Source: Escherichia phage Lindwurm. From it: a stretch of 64,000 nt of DNA. The translations under genes were made by a program, and so were the position numbers. Below, one piece after another: positions 10,416 through 45,492 of this stretch. Within the stretch, counting starts at the first letter, position 1. Every line of letters begins with the position of its first letter. A model generated the notes under the pieces. The model was not told the origin of the DNA, made no database searches, and saw only the letters and a program-made list of their open reading frames with translations. The stretch lies in the sequence record NC_134264.1, one strand, 5' to 3'.

Positions 10416-11088
10416 GTTTCAGGGCAGCCTTAACAGCTTCGTTAATCAACGTAATAATTTCTTCACGAGTCCACTTATATCCTAGAGATTTTACGTCAAC
10501 CCCTAGCTTTTCCAGATGTTTAACAGAAGCCAGCTCGTAATTCATATAATGAACGTTCTGTTGTTTGCCTTCTGATAGAAGCCATACACGGTAACAACCA
10601 ACAGGATTATCCATTGCTTTTTTGATTTCACCGATACACTGGTATCCAGGAACCCAAACAAGCTCACCAACTGCAAATTCTTCTGCTACAGCATCATCAG
10701 GAATAATTGGAGGATTCAATGGATCTACAATATCGTTCAAACGAAGCAGAGCACCGTATCGTTCCAGAACAGATTTAACCATTGCTACAGAGCGATAATT
10801 ACGATCGGCAATTTCTTCGAAAGAATCACCAGATAAATACTGCTCAATAACGTTAGCTAACTCAATGCCTTCAATAAGTGTGCCGCGTTTCTTTTTCTTC
10901 ATTTCGGCAACTTGAATCTGACGGTCTTGCCATTCTTCAATCATCCTTTCCATAGTTGGATTGGATGATACGCCGAGCATTTCACATGCTGCTTTCTTAG
11001 TACCACCGTTCTCCAGATGCTCTATAACCTTTTTAAAGACTTCATCGGGGATTTCATGGATATGTTTCTTTCTACGAGAACCAGCCAT
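10384..11088 (-). CDS. hypothetical protein (possible DNA-binding N-terminus)
   Basis: 234-aa ORF; basic N-terminus; downstream of promoter. Confidence 0.5.
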   Translation of the reverse strand: MAGSRRKKHIHEIPDEVFKKVIEHLENGGTKKAACEMLGVSSNPTMERMIEEWQDRQIQVAEMKKKKRGTLIEGIELANVIEQYLSGDSFEEIADRNYRSVAMVKSVLERYGALLRLNDIVDPLNPPIIPDDAVAEEFAVGELVWVPGYQCIGEIKKAMDNPVGCYRVWLLSEGKQQNVHYMNYELASVKHLEKLGVDVKSLGYKWTREEIITLINEAVKAALKLDKEKGKRRE

Positions 11089-11853: not shown

Positions 11854-14695
11854 CTAGCTCTGCCATTGCTTCATCATGCATATGTTTTTCCTCATCAGTC
11901 ATAAACTTATACGGGATTGGCATACACTCGATTTTACAATAGGTTCTGTACCAGTCTACAATATTCTCCGTGTTCATATCCTTACCAATACCCATCATAC
12001 CAAGATACATTCTTGCATATTTTGGGTTAGCACTCTGACCTGTTTTAAGGAAGAAATCTTTCTTCTTACCTTTCAGGGCTTCTATGAATGGTTTGATAGT
12101 GACATTTGAACACTTCTTAATATCTTCCCAGAACATCTCGTGCATTTTATGGAAGAATGCCGCTCGATCATTCGGTTTATCCTTGATATATTGTTCGACA
12201 TGCTCAACTGTTACATCTTTAATAGACTCAAGATGATAGTAGCGAACAAGAAGTAGTTTAGCTTCATACGCATCTGCATGGCGTGGAGCACAATAATCAG
12301 GAGTTGAATACAAAATAGCTTTGATTCGCTCTTCCGTATATTCCTTACCAGCACCTTCGATAGTTCCCCAGCTTTCACTGAAAATATCAATAGTTGCACC
12401 CTGATCAAGCAAGTAATAACGTAAAGTACTAGTATAGTTTCTAGATTCCAGCTCTCTACGACGTGCGTATAATTGCTGTGCTAACTCTAGCCAACCTTCA
12501 TCAATGTTATATTGCTCAGAACCTGCGGAGAATCCACTCGTAGATTTATCAATAAAATAATAAATGTTCTGAGCGCCGCGGTCGCGCCTGATTGCTTGAA
12601 AACGCATGTTTGGCGCTTGGTTGCTGGTTCTAGTAATAACGAATACGTTATCAAAGTAGTTGAAGTCAACGCCACTCGTTACGGATGGACTACATAATAA
12701 GCAATCAATTTGTTGGTCAATCAGCTCATTAGTTGTGTAATCCAGAATACGTCGAATATCTACATCGGATGTAGAATTTGAGTGGATTTCCTTAACTAAC
12801 GCACCCGTATTACGACGCAATGCCATGCCCTTCTCATTCAGTTCATCCGGTCCACAGTCAGATACTAGGATAGATTTCTCACCCATCTCTAGAGAGGTCT
12901 GAAGTGCAACCCAAATACTAGATTCATCAGGGAACTCATAAGCATGGGCTTTTGACAGCATTTTACGGTGATGATTATAAAATGCAACCGGTTTATCAAA
13001 CTCAATCAAAGAACCATATGCTTCAATTGTTTCTGCACTAATATCCCCATCAGATAATATAATGATTTTTGCAGTTGCAAGAATATCCCGAAGAACCTGA
13101 ATACATTCACGACGTTGTTTAACAACCGGGGCGAATAATAGGTCATTCATTACAGCATCACATTCATCGATAAAGATTGCATCAATTTGACCAATAAAAC
13201 TCTTGAACTTATGCAAAGAGTGAATAGTTGTGGACATACGGTCAATAGCACCACGCTTAAAATTAAGCATATCTACAGACTTATCATATTGCCCTGCACT
13301 AAATTTCTTAGCATTTGAAGATACCAGTGCTCGAGTATTGGTAATTGCTAAGAAATTACCTTTAATAACTCCTGAATCTAACCAACGCACAACCGCCGTA
13401 GTTTTACCTGTACCTAGACTTGCTTTTACAAAAGTCATATAACCTTCTGGTGGTACAGTATTTAATTTCAAGAAGTTATCAGTTTCTAGAGAATTAGTTT
13501 CTAGCTTTTTAAGTGGAATACCTTTTAAAACATCAGGTATATCGCGTTTAGAATTATTAACAAACGCTTTCAGAGCCTGTTTACGACCGTTATTAAAGTA
13601 ATCTTGAATATTACGACTATTATCTTTAGTTGCAATATATTCTGATAAGGCTGGACGGATTTCTTTTTCTAGCCATGCAAAATCAACACCATCCTCTAAA
13701 GCTCTGTGATAGAGTTTAGGAATAATACGTAGATACACTCCATCCTCAGCTTCTTCTAGTTCGCTGATAGTTTCCTCTACTTTATCAGAGGCAGCTTTTT
13801 TACCTTTAATTTGGTCGAGTAAAGAGTAAAACTCCTCCTTAAACTCACCTCTAGTTGTTTCATAGTCAACCAGATTATTGGGTAAATTTACTTTAGAACC
13901 CTTAACAAATACCAGACGTGAAGCACCCTCCGCTTTAAACGGATCTACTATACCATCGGTAAATAACGGATCTGCAAAATAATGGAGCTGTACGGAAGAG
14001 TAATAAGCTAAGTCGGCAATATCAAAGCCATACTTTTGTCTACTACTTTCGTTGATAGATGTAAATAAGAATTTGATTTGACCCTGAGTTACTTTAACAT
14101 TAGATTCTAGTATTAAGTGCATTCGGATACCTGGTTTTAGCCCAGCCGAAGACGATGCATGAGCGATAAACCCTGCATCAAGGGGAAACATGTCCTCACT
14201 AATACTATTTAACATTCTAATAATATGTCGAGCCATGCCAACAAGATCAAACTTGTTACAACCACCTGTATCTACAATACCATCCACATCCATTGCAATT
14301 ATATGACTTGGGTTAGATACATTAAAGTTGCCCTTCTTACGTCGCACATTATTTTTAGGTGCAAGACATCGACCTCGTACCGCAACGATATGAGGGTCAG
14401 ACGTTAAACGTCTCATAAGAGGAAGCATTTCTACTAGGGTTTGAGGATCAACTTCATCAATTACATCAAACTTGAAGGGCATTGAAGCTGGTTTACCTTC
14501 AGGATGCTTTGAAGAAAATCTTTTAGCAAAAAGATAGTCTTCTGCTTTAACTTCTCGCCAATTGCCTGTGGCTAAATCGCGATGAAATCCTGCATGACCT
14601 TGTAGGATTGAGAACACAACAATACTCCTGTGTTGGAAATGAAATAAGTTTTCTTTAGGACTATTCAGAAAGAATAGAACAACTGTTACTGTCAA
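11828..14695 (-). CDS. P-loop NTPase / helicase-like replication protein; true start uncertain
   Basis: Walker A SLGTGKTT and Walker B-like FIDECDA; N-terminal 70 aa look non-coding, so start may be an internal Met. Confidence 0.6.
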   Translation of the reverse strand: MTVTVVLFFLNSPKENLFHFQHRSIVVFSILQGHAGFHRDLATGNWREVKAEDYLFAKRFSSKHPEGKPASMPFKFDVIDEVDPQTLVEMLPLMRRLTSDPHIVAVRGRCLAPKNNVRRKKGNFNVSNPSHIIAMDVDGIVDTGGCNKFDLVGMARHIIRMLNSISEDMFPLDAGFIAHASSSAGLKPGIRMHLILESNVKVTQGQIKFLFTSINESSRQKYGFDIADLAYYSSVQLHYFADPLFTDGIVDPFKAEGASRLVFVKGSKVNLPNNLVDYETTRGEFKEEFYSLLDQIKGKKAASDKVEETISELEEAEDGVYLRIIPKLYHRALEDGVDFAWLEKEIRPALSEYIATKDNSRNIQDYFNNGRKQALKAFVNNSKRDIPDVLKGIPLKKLETNSLETDNFLKLNTVPPEGYMTFVKASLGTGKTTAVVRWLDSGVIKGNFLAITNTRALVSSNAKKFSAGQYDKSVDMLNFKRGAIDRMSTTIHSLHKFKSFIGQIDAIFIDECDAVMNDLLFAPVVKQRRECIQVLRDILATAKIIILSDGDISAETIEAYGSLIEFDKPVAFYNHHRKMLSKAHAYEFPDESSIWVALQTSLEMGEKSILVSDCGPDELNEKGMALRRNTGALVKEIHSNSTSDVDIRRILDYTTNELIDQQIDCLLCSPSVTSGVDFNYFDNVFVITRTSNQAPNMRFQAIRRDRGAQNIYYFIDKSTSGFSAGSEQYNIDEGWLELAQQLYARRRELESRNYTSTLRYYLLDQGATIDIFSESWGTIEGAGKEYTEERIKAILYSTPDYCAPRHADAYEAKLLLVRYYHLESIKDVTVEHVEQYIKDKPNDRAAFFHKMHEMFWEDIKKCSNVTIKPFIEALKGKKKDFFLKTGQSANPKYARMYLGMMGIGKDMNTENIVDWYRTYCKIECMPIPYKFMTDEEKHMHDEAMAELGARNDSEE

Positions 14696-38198: not shown

Positions 38199-38276
38199 GG
38201 TTCTCAAGCTCATATGGTATGAGCACCCAGCTCATAACTGGAAGGTACGTAGGTTCGAATCCTCGGGGAGCCACCA
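38199..38276 (+). tRNA. tRNA with CAU anticodon (Met/fMet/Ile2)
   Basis: acceptor GGTTCTC/GGGAGCC with G-U pairs, D-arm GCTC-ATATGGTAT-GAGC, anticodon loop CTCATAA; T-stem poorly paired. Confidence 0.55.
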
Positions 38277-38779: not shown

Positions 38780-38856
38780 GGGGGTGTAATCGAATTGGCA
38801 TAGGTACTGGACTTAAAATTCAGGTTTTGTGGGTTCGAATCCCACCACCCCTACCA
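38780..38856 (+). tRNA. class I tRNA with UAA anticodon (Leu-decoding by anticodon)
   Basis: acceptor GGGGGTG/CACCCCT, D-stem ATC/GGT, anticodon stem CTGGA/TTCAG loop CTTAAAA, 5-nt variable loop, T-arm GTGGG-TTCGAAT-CCCAC, A73, CCA. Confidence 0.6.
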
Positions 38857-39802: not shown

Positions 39803-39890
39803 GGGCGTTTATTCCGTAAGTGGTAGCGGAGGGGACTGTAAATCCCTGGTCATTGCGACTCGAGTGGTTCGACTCCATTAACGCCCACCA
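39803..39890 (+). tRNA. tRNA-Tyr (anticodon GUA), class II
   Basis: acceptor GGGCGTT/AACGCCC, anticodon loop CTGTAAA, long variable arm, T-loop TTCGACT, CCA. Confidence 0.7.
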
Positions 39891-40444: not shown

Positions 40445-40492
40445 AATTACATAAATTGAACTGGAGAAGCAACATGATAGAATAAGATAAAT

Positions 40493-40568
40493 CGACCGTT
40501 GGCTGAATGGCTTAGGCGAAGGATTGCAAATCCTTTTTATGTGAGTTCAAATCTCATGCGGTCGTCCA
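40493..40568 (+). tRNA. tRNA-Cys (anticodon GCA)
   Basis: acceptor CGACCGT/GCGGTCG, anticodon stem AAGGA/TCCTT loop TTGCAAA, T-arm GTGAG-TTCAAAT-CTCAT, CCA. Confidence 0.7.
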
Positions 40569-40576
40569 AATTTTTA

Positions 40577-40659
40577 GGGTCGTTAGCCAAGTGGTTTGGC
40601 GGCGGATTGTTAATCCGTGTCGAAAGACAACGTAGGTTCGAATCCTACACGGCCCGCCA
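40577..40659 (+). tRNA. tRNA-Asn (anticodon GUU) with 13-nt extra arm
   Basis: acceptor GGGTCGT/ACGGCCC, D-arm GCCA-AGTGGTT-TGGC, anticodon stem GCGGA/TCCGT loop TTGTTAA, variable region GTCGAAAGACAAC, T-arm GTAGG-TTCGAAT-CCTAC, CCA. Confidence 0.65.
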
Positions 40660-40761
40660 AATTCTGTGTAGAGTTAAGTAAACCGGTAGCCAACCAGCTA
40701 TCATTGCTGATATCGAATTCAGCCACAGATACCGTTTTCATTAATAACTGAGGAAACAAGC

Positions 40762-42416: not shown

Positions 42417-42495
42417 AGATCGCTAGCTCAATAGGTTTAGTAGCATCCGACTTTTAATCGGAAGGTTCTGGGTTCGAGTCCCAGGCGATCTACCA
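42417..42495 (+). tRNA. tRNA-Lys (anticodon UUU)
   Basis: acceptor AGATCGC/GCGATCT, anticodon stem TCCGA/TCGGA loop CTTTTAA, T-arm CTGGG-TTCGAGT-CCCAG, CCA. Confidence 0.7.
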
Positions 42496-43054: not shown

Positions 43055-43639
43055 ATGCAGTTTGTACCAATAAAAGATGCACCAGGGTATTTAGTAAATG
43101 AAACAGGGGATGTGTTATCTACATTTACTAATAAAATTTTATCAAGATATATAGTTGATGGATACCCTGCTGTAAAATTACAGATAAATGGTAAGCAAAC
43201 TTCGGTACTTATACACCGAATTATTTCTCATGTATTTGGGGACTTATATAATCTATTTGACCCTGAATTAGAAGTAGATCACAAGGATAGAGATAGGCTG
43301 AATCTATCTAAAGATAATCTTCAAGTTTTGTCAAAAATAGAACATCAGAAGAAAACTAATAAAGATAATGGATGGTCTGATAGTAGAGTACCTTGCCCCT
43401 TATGTGGAAATCTAATGCTTCAGAGATCAGTAACATGTACAAATTGTAAGCCAAAACCTACAGGAAAGTTAATAAAACCAGAATTGTCCTTAGAAGACAT
43501 AACTGAAAAGGTTTTATTAATGGGGTGGGTTAAGGCAGCTAAAGATCTAGAAGTATCAGAGTCCACTTTACGTAGACGATATACTAAACTAACCGGATTA
43601 AGCCCAAAAGTATTAACAGAACAACGGAAAAGCAAATAG
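43055..43639 (+). CDS. HNH homing endonuclease
   Basis: EVDHKDRDRLNLSKDNLQVLSKIEHQKK HNH motif; C-terminal Cys cluster and HTH-like tail; sits inside tRNA island. Confidence 0.75.
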   Translation: MQFVPIKDAPGYLVNETGDVLSTFTNKILSRYIVDGYPAVKLQINGKQTSVLIHRIISHVFGDLYNLFDPELEVDHKDRDRLNLSKDNLQVLSKIEHQKKTNKDNGWSDSRVPCPLCGNLMLQRSVTCTNCKPKPTGKLIKPELSLEDITEKVLLMGWVKAAKDLEVSESTLRRRYTKLTGLSPKVLTEQRKSK

Positions 43640-43719
43640 ACTGGTGACTAAACCCGATTGGAAATCGGTTGAGTGGTAGCAATACCGCCTTATGGGTTCA
43701 ACTCCCATCTTTTCCGCCA
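43626..43719 (+). tRNA. tRNA-Ser (anticodon GGA), class II
   Basis: acceptor GGAAAAG/CTTTTCC, anticodon stem CCGA/TCGG loop TTGGAAA, long variable arm, T-arm ATGGG-TTCAACT-CCCAT, CCA; 5' end overlaps HNH stop by about 14 nt. Confidence 0.55.
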
Positions 43720-45405: not shown

Positions 45406-45492
45406 GCTGGGTTGGCAGAATGGTTGAATGCACCTGATTTGTAATCAGGAGGAGTAATCCCACTGCAGGTTCGAATCCTGTGCCCAGCACCA
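45406..45492 (+). tRNA. tRNA-Thr (anticodon UGU) with 15-nt extra arm
   Basis: acceptor GCTGGGT/GCCCAGC, D-stem GCA/TGC, anticodon stem CCTGA/TCAGG loop TTTGTAA, variable region AGGAGTAATCCCACT (GGA-GTAA-TCC hairpin), T-arm GCAGG-TTCGAAT-CCTGT, CCA. Confidence 0.65.

What the first reader, a model, noticed from the sequence alone, without database searches (positions are those of the whole stretch)
40577..40659. tRNA-Asn (GUU) carrying a 13-nt extra arm
The hand-folded cloverleaf is otherwise canonical, with an anticodon loop TTGTTAA that reads GUU. Between anticodon stem and T-stem there are 13 nt (GTCGAAAGACAAC) able to form a GTC-GAAA-GAC hairpin. Long extra arms are normally restricted to Leu, Ser and Tyr tRNAs in bacteria and their phages. 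An Asn-anticodon tRNA with a class II-like arm is structurally unusual and could alter recognition by synthetases, modification enzymes or anticodon nucleases.
Basis: seen in the sequence. Interest (0 to 1): 0.65.

Follow-up and report, generated by a model that had tools for sequence, protein, structure and literature searches.

The report
Phage tRNA-Asn with selected extra arm
This is a real asparagine tRNA gene of a T5-like phage that carries a small, evolutionarily maintained extra hairpin almost never seen on cellular asparagine tRNAs, and it may help the phage tRNA survive bacterial defence enzymes that cut the host's version.

Summary
ARAGORN, Rfam and RNAfold all give an 83-nt tRNA-Asn(GUU) at 40577-40659 with a 13-nt variable region folding as GUC-GAAA-GAC plus tail AAC. 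The arm is under selection: in about 90 distinct phage tRNA-Asn genes the stem sequence varies but pairing is kept, and the loop is mostly GNRA. The design is common in phage tRNA arrays (T5-like, T4-like and Justusliebigvirus phages, many IMG/VR contigs). It is absent from 5,426 E. coli genomes and very rare in 185,579 species genomes. The gene is already annotated as tRNA-Asn in many phages, but I found no paper that discusses the arm. The window's anticodon arm is 16/17 identical to E. coli tRNA-Asn, including the UAAUC|C site that the PARIS nuclease AriB cuts. Phage T5 itself has a different, short-armed allele with that site mutated. The window's tRNA-Thr(UGU), another AriB target, has the same kind of arm and also keeps the host site. 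Best explanation, inferred and not shown: a working Asn tRNA whose extra arm blocks nucleases that cut the upper anticodon stem. Published Bas33 rescue data fit this. An apparent counter-example, Bas34, is a broken chimeric gene.

The parts
40577..40659 (+). tRNA-Asn(GUU) gene, 83 nt, CCA encoded
   Evidence: ARAGORN; Rfam RF00005 60 bits; RNAfold cloverleaf; annotated tRNA-Asn in homologous phages
40577..40583 (+). acceptor stem 5' strand GGGTCGT; pairs with 40649-40655 ACGGCCC (7 pairs, one T-G)
40586..40600 (+). D arm: stem GCCA/TGGC, 7-nt loop AGTGGTT (U16 kept, position 17 absent)
40602..40618 (+). anticodon arm GCGGA-TTGTTAA-TCCGT; anticodon GTT at 40609-40611; 16 of 17 nt identical to E. 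coli tRNA-Asn (only C32 to U)
40615..40616 (+). C40|C41, the position matching the AriB (PARIS) cut in E. coli tRNA-Asn (U36AAUC|C41); sequence unchanged from the host
   Evidence: sequence; cleavage site as reported in PMC12409363
40619..40631 (+). 13-nt variable region: stem GTC (40619-40621), GAAA tetraloop (40622-40625), stem GAC (40626-40628), unpaired tail AAC (40629-40631)
   Evidence: hairpin conserved by covariation across the family
40632..40648 (+). T arm: stem GTAGG/CCTAC, loop TTCGAAT
40656..40656 (+). discriminator G73, part of the E. coli Asn identity set; G in 86 of 91 distinct long-arm Asn genes
   Evidence: identity rule from PMC9976931
40493..40568 (+). tRNA-Cys(GCA), 8 nt upstream on the same strand; probably co-transcribed with Asn (inferred)
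40456..40483 (+). sigma-70-like site TTGAAC-16-TAGAAT upstream of tRNA-Cys; weak evidence on its own. T5 has an annotated promoter (P14b) upstream of its tRNA-Cys.
45406..45492 (+). sister case: tRNA-Thr(UGU), 87 nt, variable region 45450-45464 with hairpin GGA-GTAA-TCC (45451-45460); keeps the host-type U36AAUC|A41
42417..42495 (+). tRNA-Lys(UUU), the third AriB-target isoacceptor: 79 nt, normal 5-nt variable loop, 11-nt D loop, U36AAUC|G41

Best explanation
The element is a genuine phage tRNA-Asn(GUU) gene in the tRNA array of a T5-like phage. It most likely decodes AAC/AAU as asparagine after charging by the host AsnRS, because it keeps the GUU anticodon, G73 and a host-identical anticodon arm. 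Its 3-bp, GAAA-capped extra arm is a selected structural module. The proposed mechanism is inferred. The arm projects from the tRNA core right next to the 3' strand of the anticodon stem. There it acts as a steric or shape anti-determinant against host defence nucleases that cut the upper anticodon stem of ordinary short-armed tRNAs: PARIS AriB at 40|41, and perhaps other OLD-family TOPRIM tRNases. The phage could then keep a host-optimal anticodon stem and still have an Asn tRNA that survives when the host copy is destroyed. T5 itself reaches the same end differently, by mutating the stem. Confidence by step: real tRNA-Asn gene with a selected extra helix, about 0.97; functional Asn decoder, about 0.85; arm serves nuclease evasion, about 0.4-0.45.
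For: Shown here. (1) Gene and fold. (2) The arm is a selected helix: 40 different stem sequences, 65 of 75 arms form a hairpin versus a shuffle mean of 37, and 42 of 65 loops are GNRA; per-pair covariation matches the canonical stems. (3) The arm belongs to phage arrays: 15 of 61 Asn genes in loci with at least 4 tRNAs carry it versus 0 of 23 stand-alone genes, p = 0.008; none in E. coli genomes; about 20 in 185,579 species genomes. (4) The anticodon arm is 16/17 identical to the host while other stems share only 1-2 bases per strand. (5) Within T5-like phages there are two non-homologous Asn alleles: a long arm with host-type UAAUC|C (window, Bas32, Bas33), or a short loop with mutated UAAGU|U (T5). 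(6) In this window the only two non-class-II tRNAs with extra arms are Asn(GUU) and Thr(UGU), both among the three main AriB targets (3/136 = 0.022 by chance). From the literature: AriB cuts E. coli tRNA-Lys(UUU), Thr(UGU) and Asn(GUU) at 40|41, and phage versions restore infection (PMC12409363). Bas33, which I show carries long-arm Thr and Asn with host-type sites and no Lys(UUU), was rescued from PARIS by T5 tRNA-Lys alone. Bas33 Thr(UGU) strongly countered P2 OLD, which cuts after nt 27-29, while T5's short Thr rescued only partly.
Against: No experiment has tested the arm. No cleavage, charging or expression data exist for this Asn allele. Any resistance could come from other differences from the host tRNA, such as the D loop lacking position 17, different acceptor, D and T stems, or C32U. 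AriB is reported to read the D loop as well. In an unselected sample of phage Thr(UGU) genes, extra arms were not significantly tied to keeping UAAUC (6 of 9 versus 23 of 54). Short Thr(UGU) tRNAs from T4 and Bas32 also resist OLD, so an arm is not needed for resistance. The same mini-arm appears sporadically on Cys, Trp, His, Phe, Glu and other tRNAs not known to be AriB or OLD targets. Asn is only a secondary AriB target. The 46 phage arrays with a short-loop, host-type Asn show that many phages do without the arm. My IMG/VR scans required the host-type anticodon arm, so they cannot test the trade-off for Asn.
Confidence: 0.42

Rival explanations
1. The arm is a structural or folding module with no role in defence. 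An insertion in the variable region persists only as a stable GNRA-capped hairpin, because that form least disturbs the tRNA core, or it stabilises a phage tRNA that is poorly modified during a fast infection.
For: GNRA tetraloops on short stems are generic stability modules. The arm occurs on many isoacceptors and in phages from many environments. Covariation proves selection for pairing, not for any particular function. No significant link to the nuclease site in Thr(UGU).
Against: It does not explain why the arm is concentrated on Asn (25% of array genes) and Thr(UGU) (about 13%) but is at 1-10% elsewhere. It does not explain why unrelated enterobacterial phage families each put it on Asn alone among non-class-II tRNAs, or why it goes with a host-identical anticodon arm while the short T5 allele has a mutated one.
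Confidence: 0.2
2. The arm changes how some other tRNA-binding factor sees the tRNA. Candidates are host variable-loop modification enzymes, other tRNA-targeting toxins acting on tRNA-Asn such as colicin E5, or a processing enzyme or phage-encoded partner.
For: The arm replaces the 5-nt loop AUGUC of the host tRNA. Colicin E5 cleaves tRNA-Tyr, His, Asn and Asp (abstract of PMC1635277). Many tRNases with different targets exist, which could explain arms on Cys, Trp and His.
Against: Colicin E5 is described in that abstract as recognising the UQU sequence in the anticodon loop, which is unchanged here, so a distant arm is not an obvious block. No partner is known. Nothing in the window points to an arm-specific enzyme. 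This reading has no advantage over AriB in explaining why Asn and Thr(UGU) are paired.
Confidence: 0.2
3. Decoy or sponge. With its host-identical anticodon arm, the tRNA binds AriB-type nucleases without being cut and competitively protects the host tRNA pool, rather than (or as well as) replacing it.
For: The authors of PMC12409363 raise this possibility for over-expressed viral tRNAs. The selective retention of the host anticodon arm fits keeping a binding surface.
Against: For P2 OLD, the Bas32 Thr(UGU) did not protect the host tRNA from degradation; it supplemented the pool. A host-like anticodon arm is also explained by decoding and AsnRS requirements.
Confidence: 0.1
4. Recoding by mischarging. 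The extra arm, G73 and G1-C72/G2-C71 make the tRNA a substrate of seryl-tRNA synthetase, so AAC/AAU codons receive serine, as with allo-tRNAs.
For: Ser identity rests mainly on the variable arm and not on the anticodon. G1-C72, G2-C71 and G73 are conserved in or contribute to E. coli tRNA-Ser (PMC9976931), and the window's tRNA has all three plus an arm.
Against: Across 91 distinct long-arm Asn genes the 1-72 pair is U-A in 63, as in short-arm Asn genes, and only 13 have G1-C72 with G2-C71. The full Asn identity set (GUU + G73) is conserved. The same arm sits on Thr(UGU) with discriminator A. The arm is 3 bp, shorter than the 4-6 bp arms of this phage's own tRNA-Ser genes. The architecture is the standard 7/5, not the allo-tRNA 8/4 or 9/3. 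Proteome-wide Asn-to-Ser substitution would be harmful.
Confidence: 0.03

Closest known systems
Phage T5 tRNA-Asn(GUU) (T5t17), one of the three T5 tRNAs that together neutralise PARIS
   Same: Same isoacceptor, G73 and CCA. Same slot in the T5-like tRNA cluster, between tRNA-Cys and tRNA-Asp. The host counterpart is an AriB target (PMC12409363).
   Different: Not a homologous body. T5's is 78 nt with a 5-nt variable loop and a weak, mutated anticodon stem (U36AAGU|U41). The window's is 83 nt with a 13-nt arm and a host-identical stem (U36AAUC|C41). T5-type allele: 146 phage records. Window-type: about 270 at 88% identity or better.
E. coli tRNA-Asn (76 nt, median four copies per genome)
   Same: Anticodon arm 16/17 identical, G26, G73, CCA, T loop 6/7 identical.
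   Different: Variable loop AUGUC (5 nt) versus a 13-nt hairpin arm. Acceptor, D and T stems almost entirely different. U1-A72 in the host versus G1-C72 here.
Class II (long-arm) tRNAs: Leu, Ser, Tyr in bacteria
   Same: A base-paired extra arm between the anticodon and T arms, kept by covariation.
   Different: The isotype is Asn. The arm is minimal (3-5 bp, usually a GNRA loop, about 3 unpaired nt on the 3' side), against 4-6 bp and varied loops in this phage's Ser and Tyr tRNAs.
Long-arm tRNA-Thr(UGU) of T5-like phages (window 45406-45492; Bas33/HildyBeyeler)
   Same: Same module design (3 bp + GNRA + tail), host-type UAAUC site kept, same tRNA cluster. The Bas33 copy works as a counter-defence tRNA against P2 OLD, and Bas33 needs only tRNA-Lys to escape PARIS.
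   Different: Different isoacceptor and discriminator (A). Rarer: about 96 T5-like records at 90% identity or better.
allo-tRNAs (long-arm tRNAs with non-Ser anticodons charged by SerRS; recalled from memory, Mukai et al. 2017, not read here)
   Same: A long variable arm combined with an anticodon outside Leu, Ser and Tyr.
   Different: allo-tRNAs have 8/4 or 9/3 acceptor/T-stem architecture. This tRNA is a standard 7/5 with Asn identity elements.

Membership tests
tRNA (Rfam RF00005) | Score above the curated gathering threshold with a full-length match to the cloverleaf model | tested here: met
   60.0 bits versus gathering 29, model positions 1-71 of 71
tRNA (Rfam RF00005) | Four canonical helices supported in relatives | tested here: met
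   Acceptor, D, anticodon and T helices 93-100% paired across 31 relatives, with compensatory changes
tRNA-Asn isoacceptor (E. coli-type identity) | Anticodon G34 U35 U36 | tested here: met
   GTT at 40609-40611 in a 7-nt loop TTGTTAA. The rule comes from PMC9976931.
tRNA-Asn isoacceptor (E. coli-type identity) | Discriminator G73 | tested here: met
   G at 40656; G in 86 of 91 distinct long-arm genes
tRNA-Asn isoacceptor (E. coli-type identity) | Charged with asparagine by AsnRS and used in translation | not testable with these tools
   Needs an in vitro charging assay or tRNA-seq of charged tRNA
Class II (long-arm) tRNA | Variable region longer than about 10 nt that forms a stem-loop | tested here: met
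   13 nt, GUC-GAAA-GAC; helix covaries
Class II (long-arm) tRNA | Isotype Leu, Ser or Tyr (or Sec) in bacteria | tested here: not met
   The anticodon is GUU (Asn)
allo-tRNA / SerRS-charged long-arm tRNA | Non-canonical 8/4 or 9/3 acceptor/T-stem architecture (feature recalled from memory) | tested here: not met
   7-bp acceptor and 5-bp T stem
allo-tRNA / SerRS-charged long-arm tRNA | Ser-type acceptor determinants G1-C72 and G2-C71 conserved in the family | tested here: not met
   Present in the window's gene but in only 13 of 91 family members; U1-A72 predominates
Phage tRNAs that neutralise PARIS (AriB-resistant variants) | Isoacceptor matches an AriB target (Lys-UUU, Thr-UGU, Asn-GUU) | tested here: met
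   Asn(GUU); target list from PMC12409363
Phage tRNAs that neutralise PARIS (AriB-resistant variants) | Substitutions at or next to the 40|41 cleavage site, as described for the T5 tRNAs | tested here: not met
   Positions 36-41 are UAAUCC, identical to E. coli tRNA-Asn; T5's allele has UAAGUU
Phage tRNAs that neutralise PARIS (AriB-resistant variants) | Not cleaved by activated AriB, and rescues infection or toxicity | not testable with these tools
   Indirect only: Bas33, which carries long-arm Asn and Thr, needed only T5 tRNA-Lys for rescue

The most novel reading that the evidence does not exclude
Remodelling of the variable arm is a general and so far unremarked way for phage tRNAs to escape shape-reading tRNA nucleases. 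On this reading, phages add a GNRA-capped mini-arm to class I tRNAs (Asn and Thr(UGU) above all, also Cys, Trp, His and others). In the opposite direction they strip the long arm from tRNA-Leu. A tRNA can then keep a host-optimal anticodon stem and still be invisible to OLD-family TOPRIM tRNases (PARIS AriB, P2 OLD) or to nucleases that read the variable arm.
Probability: 0.3. Interest if true: 0.8.

Novelty: new variant of a known kind. Interest (0 to 1): 0.6.

Why it matters
tRNA-cleaving defence systems (PARIS, OLD, retron/Septu, PrrC) and phage tRNAs that resist them are an active topic. So far resistance has been explained by base changes in the anticodon loop or stem. This gene and its sister tRNA-Thr keep the host's cleavage-site sequence and differ most visibly by an added, selected helix next to the cut strand. 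If that helix confers resistance, it is a second, structural route of escape. It would also tell us what AriB- and OLD-type nucleases read on the tRNA body, which the AriB paper lists as an open question. It would explain why extra arms on non-class-II tRNAs are found almost only in phage arrays. The test is cheap: three or four in vitro transcripts and an enzyme that is already purified. The Bas34 chimera found here also offers an explanation for a puzzling published rescue result.

Tried and rejected
1. Bas34 as a counter-example. The AriB paper reports that Bas34 needed T5 tRNA-Asn although it encodes its own. Its annotated 77-nt gene (L261 10605-10681), extended by the 6 upstream bases GGGTCG, reads as 65 nt of the long-arm Asn fused to 24 nt of the 78-nt tRNA-Met, with 3 of 7 acceptor pairs broken, and ARAGORN does not call it. 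I rejected it as evidence against the arm.
2. Trade-off test on unselected Thr(UGU) genes: 6 of 9 long-arm versus 23 of 54 short-arm genes keep UAAUC, which is not significant. The hosts are unknown and diverse, so the test is weak. I report it as evidence against a simple either/or rule.
3. Serylation: rejected on acceptor-stem statistics, the 7/5 architecture and the same arm on Thr with A73.
4. An alternative cloverleaf with a normal loop: none was offered by ARAGORN, Infernal or RNAfold.
5. BLAST of the 83-nt gene against E. coli genomes: no match.
6. The MAFFT alignment of all 90 long-arm genes scattered arms of different lengths, so I used the ungapped V = 15 subset plus a shuffle test.
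7. The supplementary figures S2 and S3 of PMC12409363, which may show these tRNAs, are not held as text.
8. Literature searches for a prior description of the arm found none. The library lacks most subscription journals, including the 1980s T5/BF23 tRNA sequencing papers, so an older mention cannot be excluded.
9. The terminator-like hit on the minus strand (40650-40630) is just the T arm read backwards.

Full report

Yes. ARAGORN calls tRNA-Asn(gtt) at exactly 40577-40659, 83 nt. Rfam's tRNA model matches end to end at 60 bits (gathering 29, E = 3e-13) and places a 10-nt insertion in the variable region. RNAfold, given only the sequence, returns the five-armed cloverleaf with GUC-GAAA-GAC as both minimum-energy and centroid structure (-33.9 kcal/mol, z = -2.98).

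Layout, read:
- acceptor GGGTCGT/ACGGCCC
- D stem GCCA/TGGC
- anticodon arm GCGGA-TTGTTAA-TCCGT
- variable region GTCGAAAGACAAC (40619-40631)
- T arm GTAGG-TTCGAAT-CCTAC
- discriminator G73, CCA encoded

No tool offered a different anticodon or acceptor stem.

**2. Context**

The window is a T5-like (Demerecviridae) phage, with best matches at 97-98% identity to many Salmonella and Escherichia phages. The gene lies in a same-strand array of 21 tRNAs (34.4-46.5 kb), 8 nt after tRNA-Cys and before tRNA-Asp. A weak sigma-70-like site precedes tRNA-Cys, and T5 has an annotated promoter upstream of its own tRNA-Cys. The small ORFs that overlap the tRNA have no support. Many homologous records already annotate tRNA-Asn here.

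**3. The arm is a selected helix**

Two IMG/VR scans for the Asn anticodon arm followed by a T arm at variable distance, plus ARAGORN on the fetched loci, gave about 90 distinct long-arm Asn genes.
- Their variable regions are 11-19 nt: 0-1 unpaired nt, a 3-5 bp stem, a loop, then about 3 unpaired nt.
- There are 40 different stem sequences.
- Of the 65 loops on stems of at least 3 bp, 42 are GNRA (33 are GAAA).
- 65 of 75 distinct arms form a hairpin of at least 3 bp, against a shuffle mean of 37 and a maximum of 50 in 1000 shuffles.
- On an ungapped MAFFT alignment of the 31 genes with a 15-nt region, the three inner pairs form in 30-31 of 31 sequences, with 10-19 sequences changed on both sides at each pair. 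This matches the canonical stems. Sliding the partner columns collapses pairing from 95% to 31-45%.

**4. Where the design occurs**

Sequenced phages:
- The 83-nt gene has about 270 matches at 88% identity or better, in T5-like phages.
- It has full-length relatives of 84-86 nt in Straboviridae (Jiaodavirus KPV15 and JD18, Winklervirus Vettismorki, Enterobacter phage PG7) and in Justusliebigvirus alia.
- In the three clusters I inspected (KPV15, alia, Vettismorki), Asn is the only tRNA outside Leu, Ser and Tyr with extra length.

IMG/VR:
- In the scan that allowed any gap length, the arm was present in 15 of 61 Asn genes in loci with at least 4 tRNAs and in 0 of 23 stand-alone genes (p = 0.008).

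Cells:
- There is no match in 5,426 complete E. coli genomes.
- The host tRNA-Asn is 76 nt with the loop AUGUC.
- Among 185,579 species genomes there were 32 pattern hits. About 20 are real long-arm Asn genes, and 11 of these sit in arrays of 7-36 tRNAs within 8 kb, for example in Micromonospora.

**5. What it is**

By the identity rules in PMC9976931, it is an asparagine tRNA. E. coli Asn identity is the anticodon plus G73. GUU is present, and G73 is found in 86 of 91 family members. The 1-72 pair is U-A in 63 of 91, as in short-arm Asn genes.

The serine-type acceptor determinants are present in the window's copy but in only 13 of 91 family members. The architecture is the standard 7/5. The same module sits on tRNA-Thr with discriminator A. 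Serylation is therefore unlikely. Charging itself cannot be tested with these tools.

**6. The link to defence**

PMC12409363 shows three things:
- The T5 versions of these three tRNAs together neutralise PARIS.
- Resistance is attributed to substitutions at or near the cut site, while other unknown determinants on the tRNA body must also exist.

That paper, the 2024 Nature paper and the 2023 eLife paper on phage tRNA escape never use the word "variable".

I compared the alleles:

| Phage | tRNA-Asn | tRNA-Thr(UGU) |
|---|---|---|
| T5 | 78 nt, 5-nt loop, UAAGU\|U | 75 nt, UAAGC\|A |
| This window | 83 nt, extra arm, UAAUC\|C | 87 nt, GGA-GUAA-UCC arm, UAAUC\|A |

The window's genes are non-homologous to T5's. 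The window's Asn anticodon arm is 16/17 identical to the host's, while its other stems share only 1-2 bases per strand with the host.

In this window the only two non-class-II tRNAs with extra arms are two of AriB's three main targets. By chance that would happen with probability 3/136 = 0.022.

**7. Published phenotypes re-read against the sequences**

- **Bas33 (HildyBeyeler)** carries an 86-nt Asn (arm AUCC-GCAA-GGAU on the same acceptor stem as the window's gene, so the arm stem has been fully replaced within close relatives). It also carries the 87-nt Thr, both with host-type sites, and has no tRNA-Lys(UUU). It was rescued from PARIS by T5 tRNA-Lys alone, whereas T7, which has no tRNAs, needed Lys plus Thr. 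This implies that Bas33's own long-arm Thr, and at least not detrimentally its Asn, work while AriB is active.
- **P2 OLD** is reported in a 2026 preprint to cut Thr(UGU) and four other tRNAs after nt 27-29. Bas33 Thr(UGU) gave strong counter-defence and T5's short Thr only partial rescue. But the short Thr tRNAs of T4 and Bas32 were also strong.
- **Bas34 (SelmaRatti)** looked like a counter-example, because it needed T5 tRNA-Asn despite encoding its own. Its gene is a chimera of 65 nt of long-arm Asn and 24 nt of tRNA-Met, with 3 of 7 acceptor pairs broken, and ARAGORN does not call it. It is probably non-functional, which would explain the published result.

**8. Mechanism, and how sure I am**

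Shown: a real tRNA-Asn gene with a selected extra helix that belongs to phage tRNA arrays, and a host-identical anticodon arm.

Inferred:
- It is charged with Asn and used in translation (about 0.85).
- The arm emerges right after position 43 on the strand that AriB cuts at 40|41, and opposite the 27-29 cuts made by OLD. It may therefore block these nucleases by shape, letting the phage keep an optimal anticodon stem (about 0.4-0.45).

Against the inference:
- There is no direct test.
- Other differences from the host tRNA exist, including the D loop.
- Arms were not significantly tied to keeping UAAUC in unselected Thr(UGU) genes (6 of 9 versus 23 of 54).
- Arms occur on isoacceptors with no known nuclease.
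- Many phage arrays carry an unarmed, host-type Asn.

Rivals are a neutral folding module, a change in recognition by some other factor, a decoy role, and serylation.

**9. Novelty**

The gene is annotated in many genomes, so it is not a new element. Phage tRNA-Asn as a PARIS countermeasure is published for the T5 allele. What appears unreported in the literature I could search is:
- the GNRA-capped extra arm as a conserved, largely phage-restricted feature of tRNA-Asn and tRNA-Thr(UGU);
- its pairing with an unmutated nuclease site;
- the chimeric nature of the Bas34 gene.

I class it as a new variant of a known kind, with interest 0.6.

Noticed in passing
window 45406-45492: tRNA-Thr(UGU) is 87 nt with its own extra arm (GGA-GTAA-TCC plus tail) and keeps the host-type U36AAUC|A41. 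T5's tRNA-Thr(UGU) is a different 75-nt allele. The long allele is in about 96 T5-like records at 90% identity or better, and is nearly identical (2 nt differ) in Bas33.
   Followed up: partly
window 38780-38856: tRNA-Leu(UAA) is only 77 nt with a 5-nt variable loop, so it is a Leu tRNA without the class II arm. Bas32 and Bas33 also have a 77-nt Leu(UAG). In the IMG/VR loci, short-loop Leu tRNAs are common (for example 21 of 65 Leu-UAA). This is the reverse of the Asn case.
   Followed up: no
window 42417-42495: tRNA-Lys(UUU) is 79 nt with an 11-nt D loop and U36AAUC|G41. It differs from the characterised AriB-resistant T5 tRNA-Lys (UAAAC|C), so its sensitivity to AriB is unknown.
   Followed up: no
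window 38199-38273; 39803-39890; 43626-43719: The tRNA finders disagree. Rfam reports a tRNA at 38199-38273 (38 bits) that ARAGORN does not call; by position, just after tRNA-Ser(GCU), it corresponds to T5's annotated tRNA-Ile2(CAU). ARAGORN's Tyr (39803-39890) and Ser-GGA (43626-43719) do not appear in the Rfam gathering list.
   Followed up: no
L261 (Escherichia phage SelmaRatti / Bas34, MZ501103) 10599-10681 and 12525-12612: The annotated tRNA-Asn is an Asn/Met deletion chimera with 3 of 7 acceptor pairs mismatched. The annotated 88-nt tRNA-His (91 nt by ARAGORN) also looks like a fusion of the His 5' part with a foreign 3' part. Bas34's tRNA cluster appears to have been shortened by recombination between T arms.
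   Followed up: partly
IMG/VR loci L014, L024, L061, L102, L112, L113, L116, L119, L121, L141, L190, L206: Phage tRNA-Ile(UAU) genes of 91-96 nt carry a 21-27 nt variable-region insert whose loop has a conserved CAGATTAG/CAGATAAT-like motif (13 of 22 such genes). This is a different kind of insert from the GNRA mini-arm, and it is unexplained.
   Followed up: no
IMG/VR loci, e.g. L019 (Cys, Trp), L082 (Trp), L109 (Phe), L170 (Ile-GAU), L216 (Lys-UUU, Pro): The same short-stem, GNRA-loop mini-arm appears sporadically on phage Cys, Trp, His, Phe, Glu, Ile(GAU), Lys and Pro tRNAs, at roughly 1-10% of genes per isoacceptor.
   Followed up: partly
L226, L227, L230, L248 (Verrucosispora / Micromonospora genome records): Arrays of 23-36 tRNA genes within 8 kb that include a long-arm tRNA-Asn. 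I did not determine whether these arrays are prophage or mobile-element borne.
   Followed up: no
window 40499-40681 (+), 40617-40751 (+), 40610-40759 (-): Small ORFs overlap the tRNA gene. Some GenBank records annotate hypothetical proteins across the homologous tRNA (for example bas32_0101, and T5.069 overlapping T5's tRNA-Asn). These are probably over-annotations.
   Followed up: no
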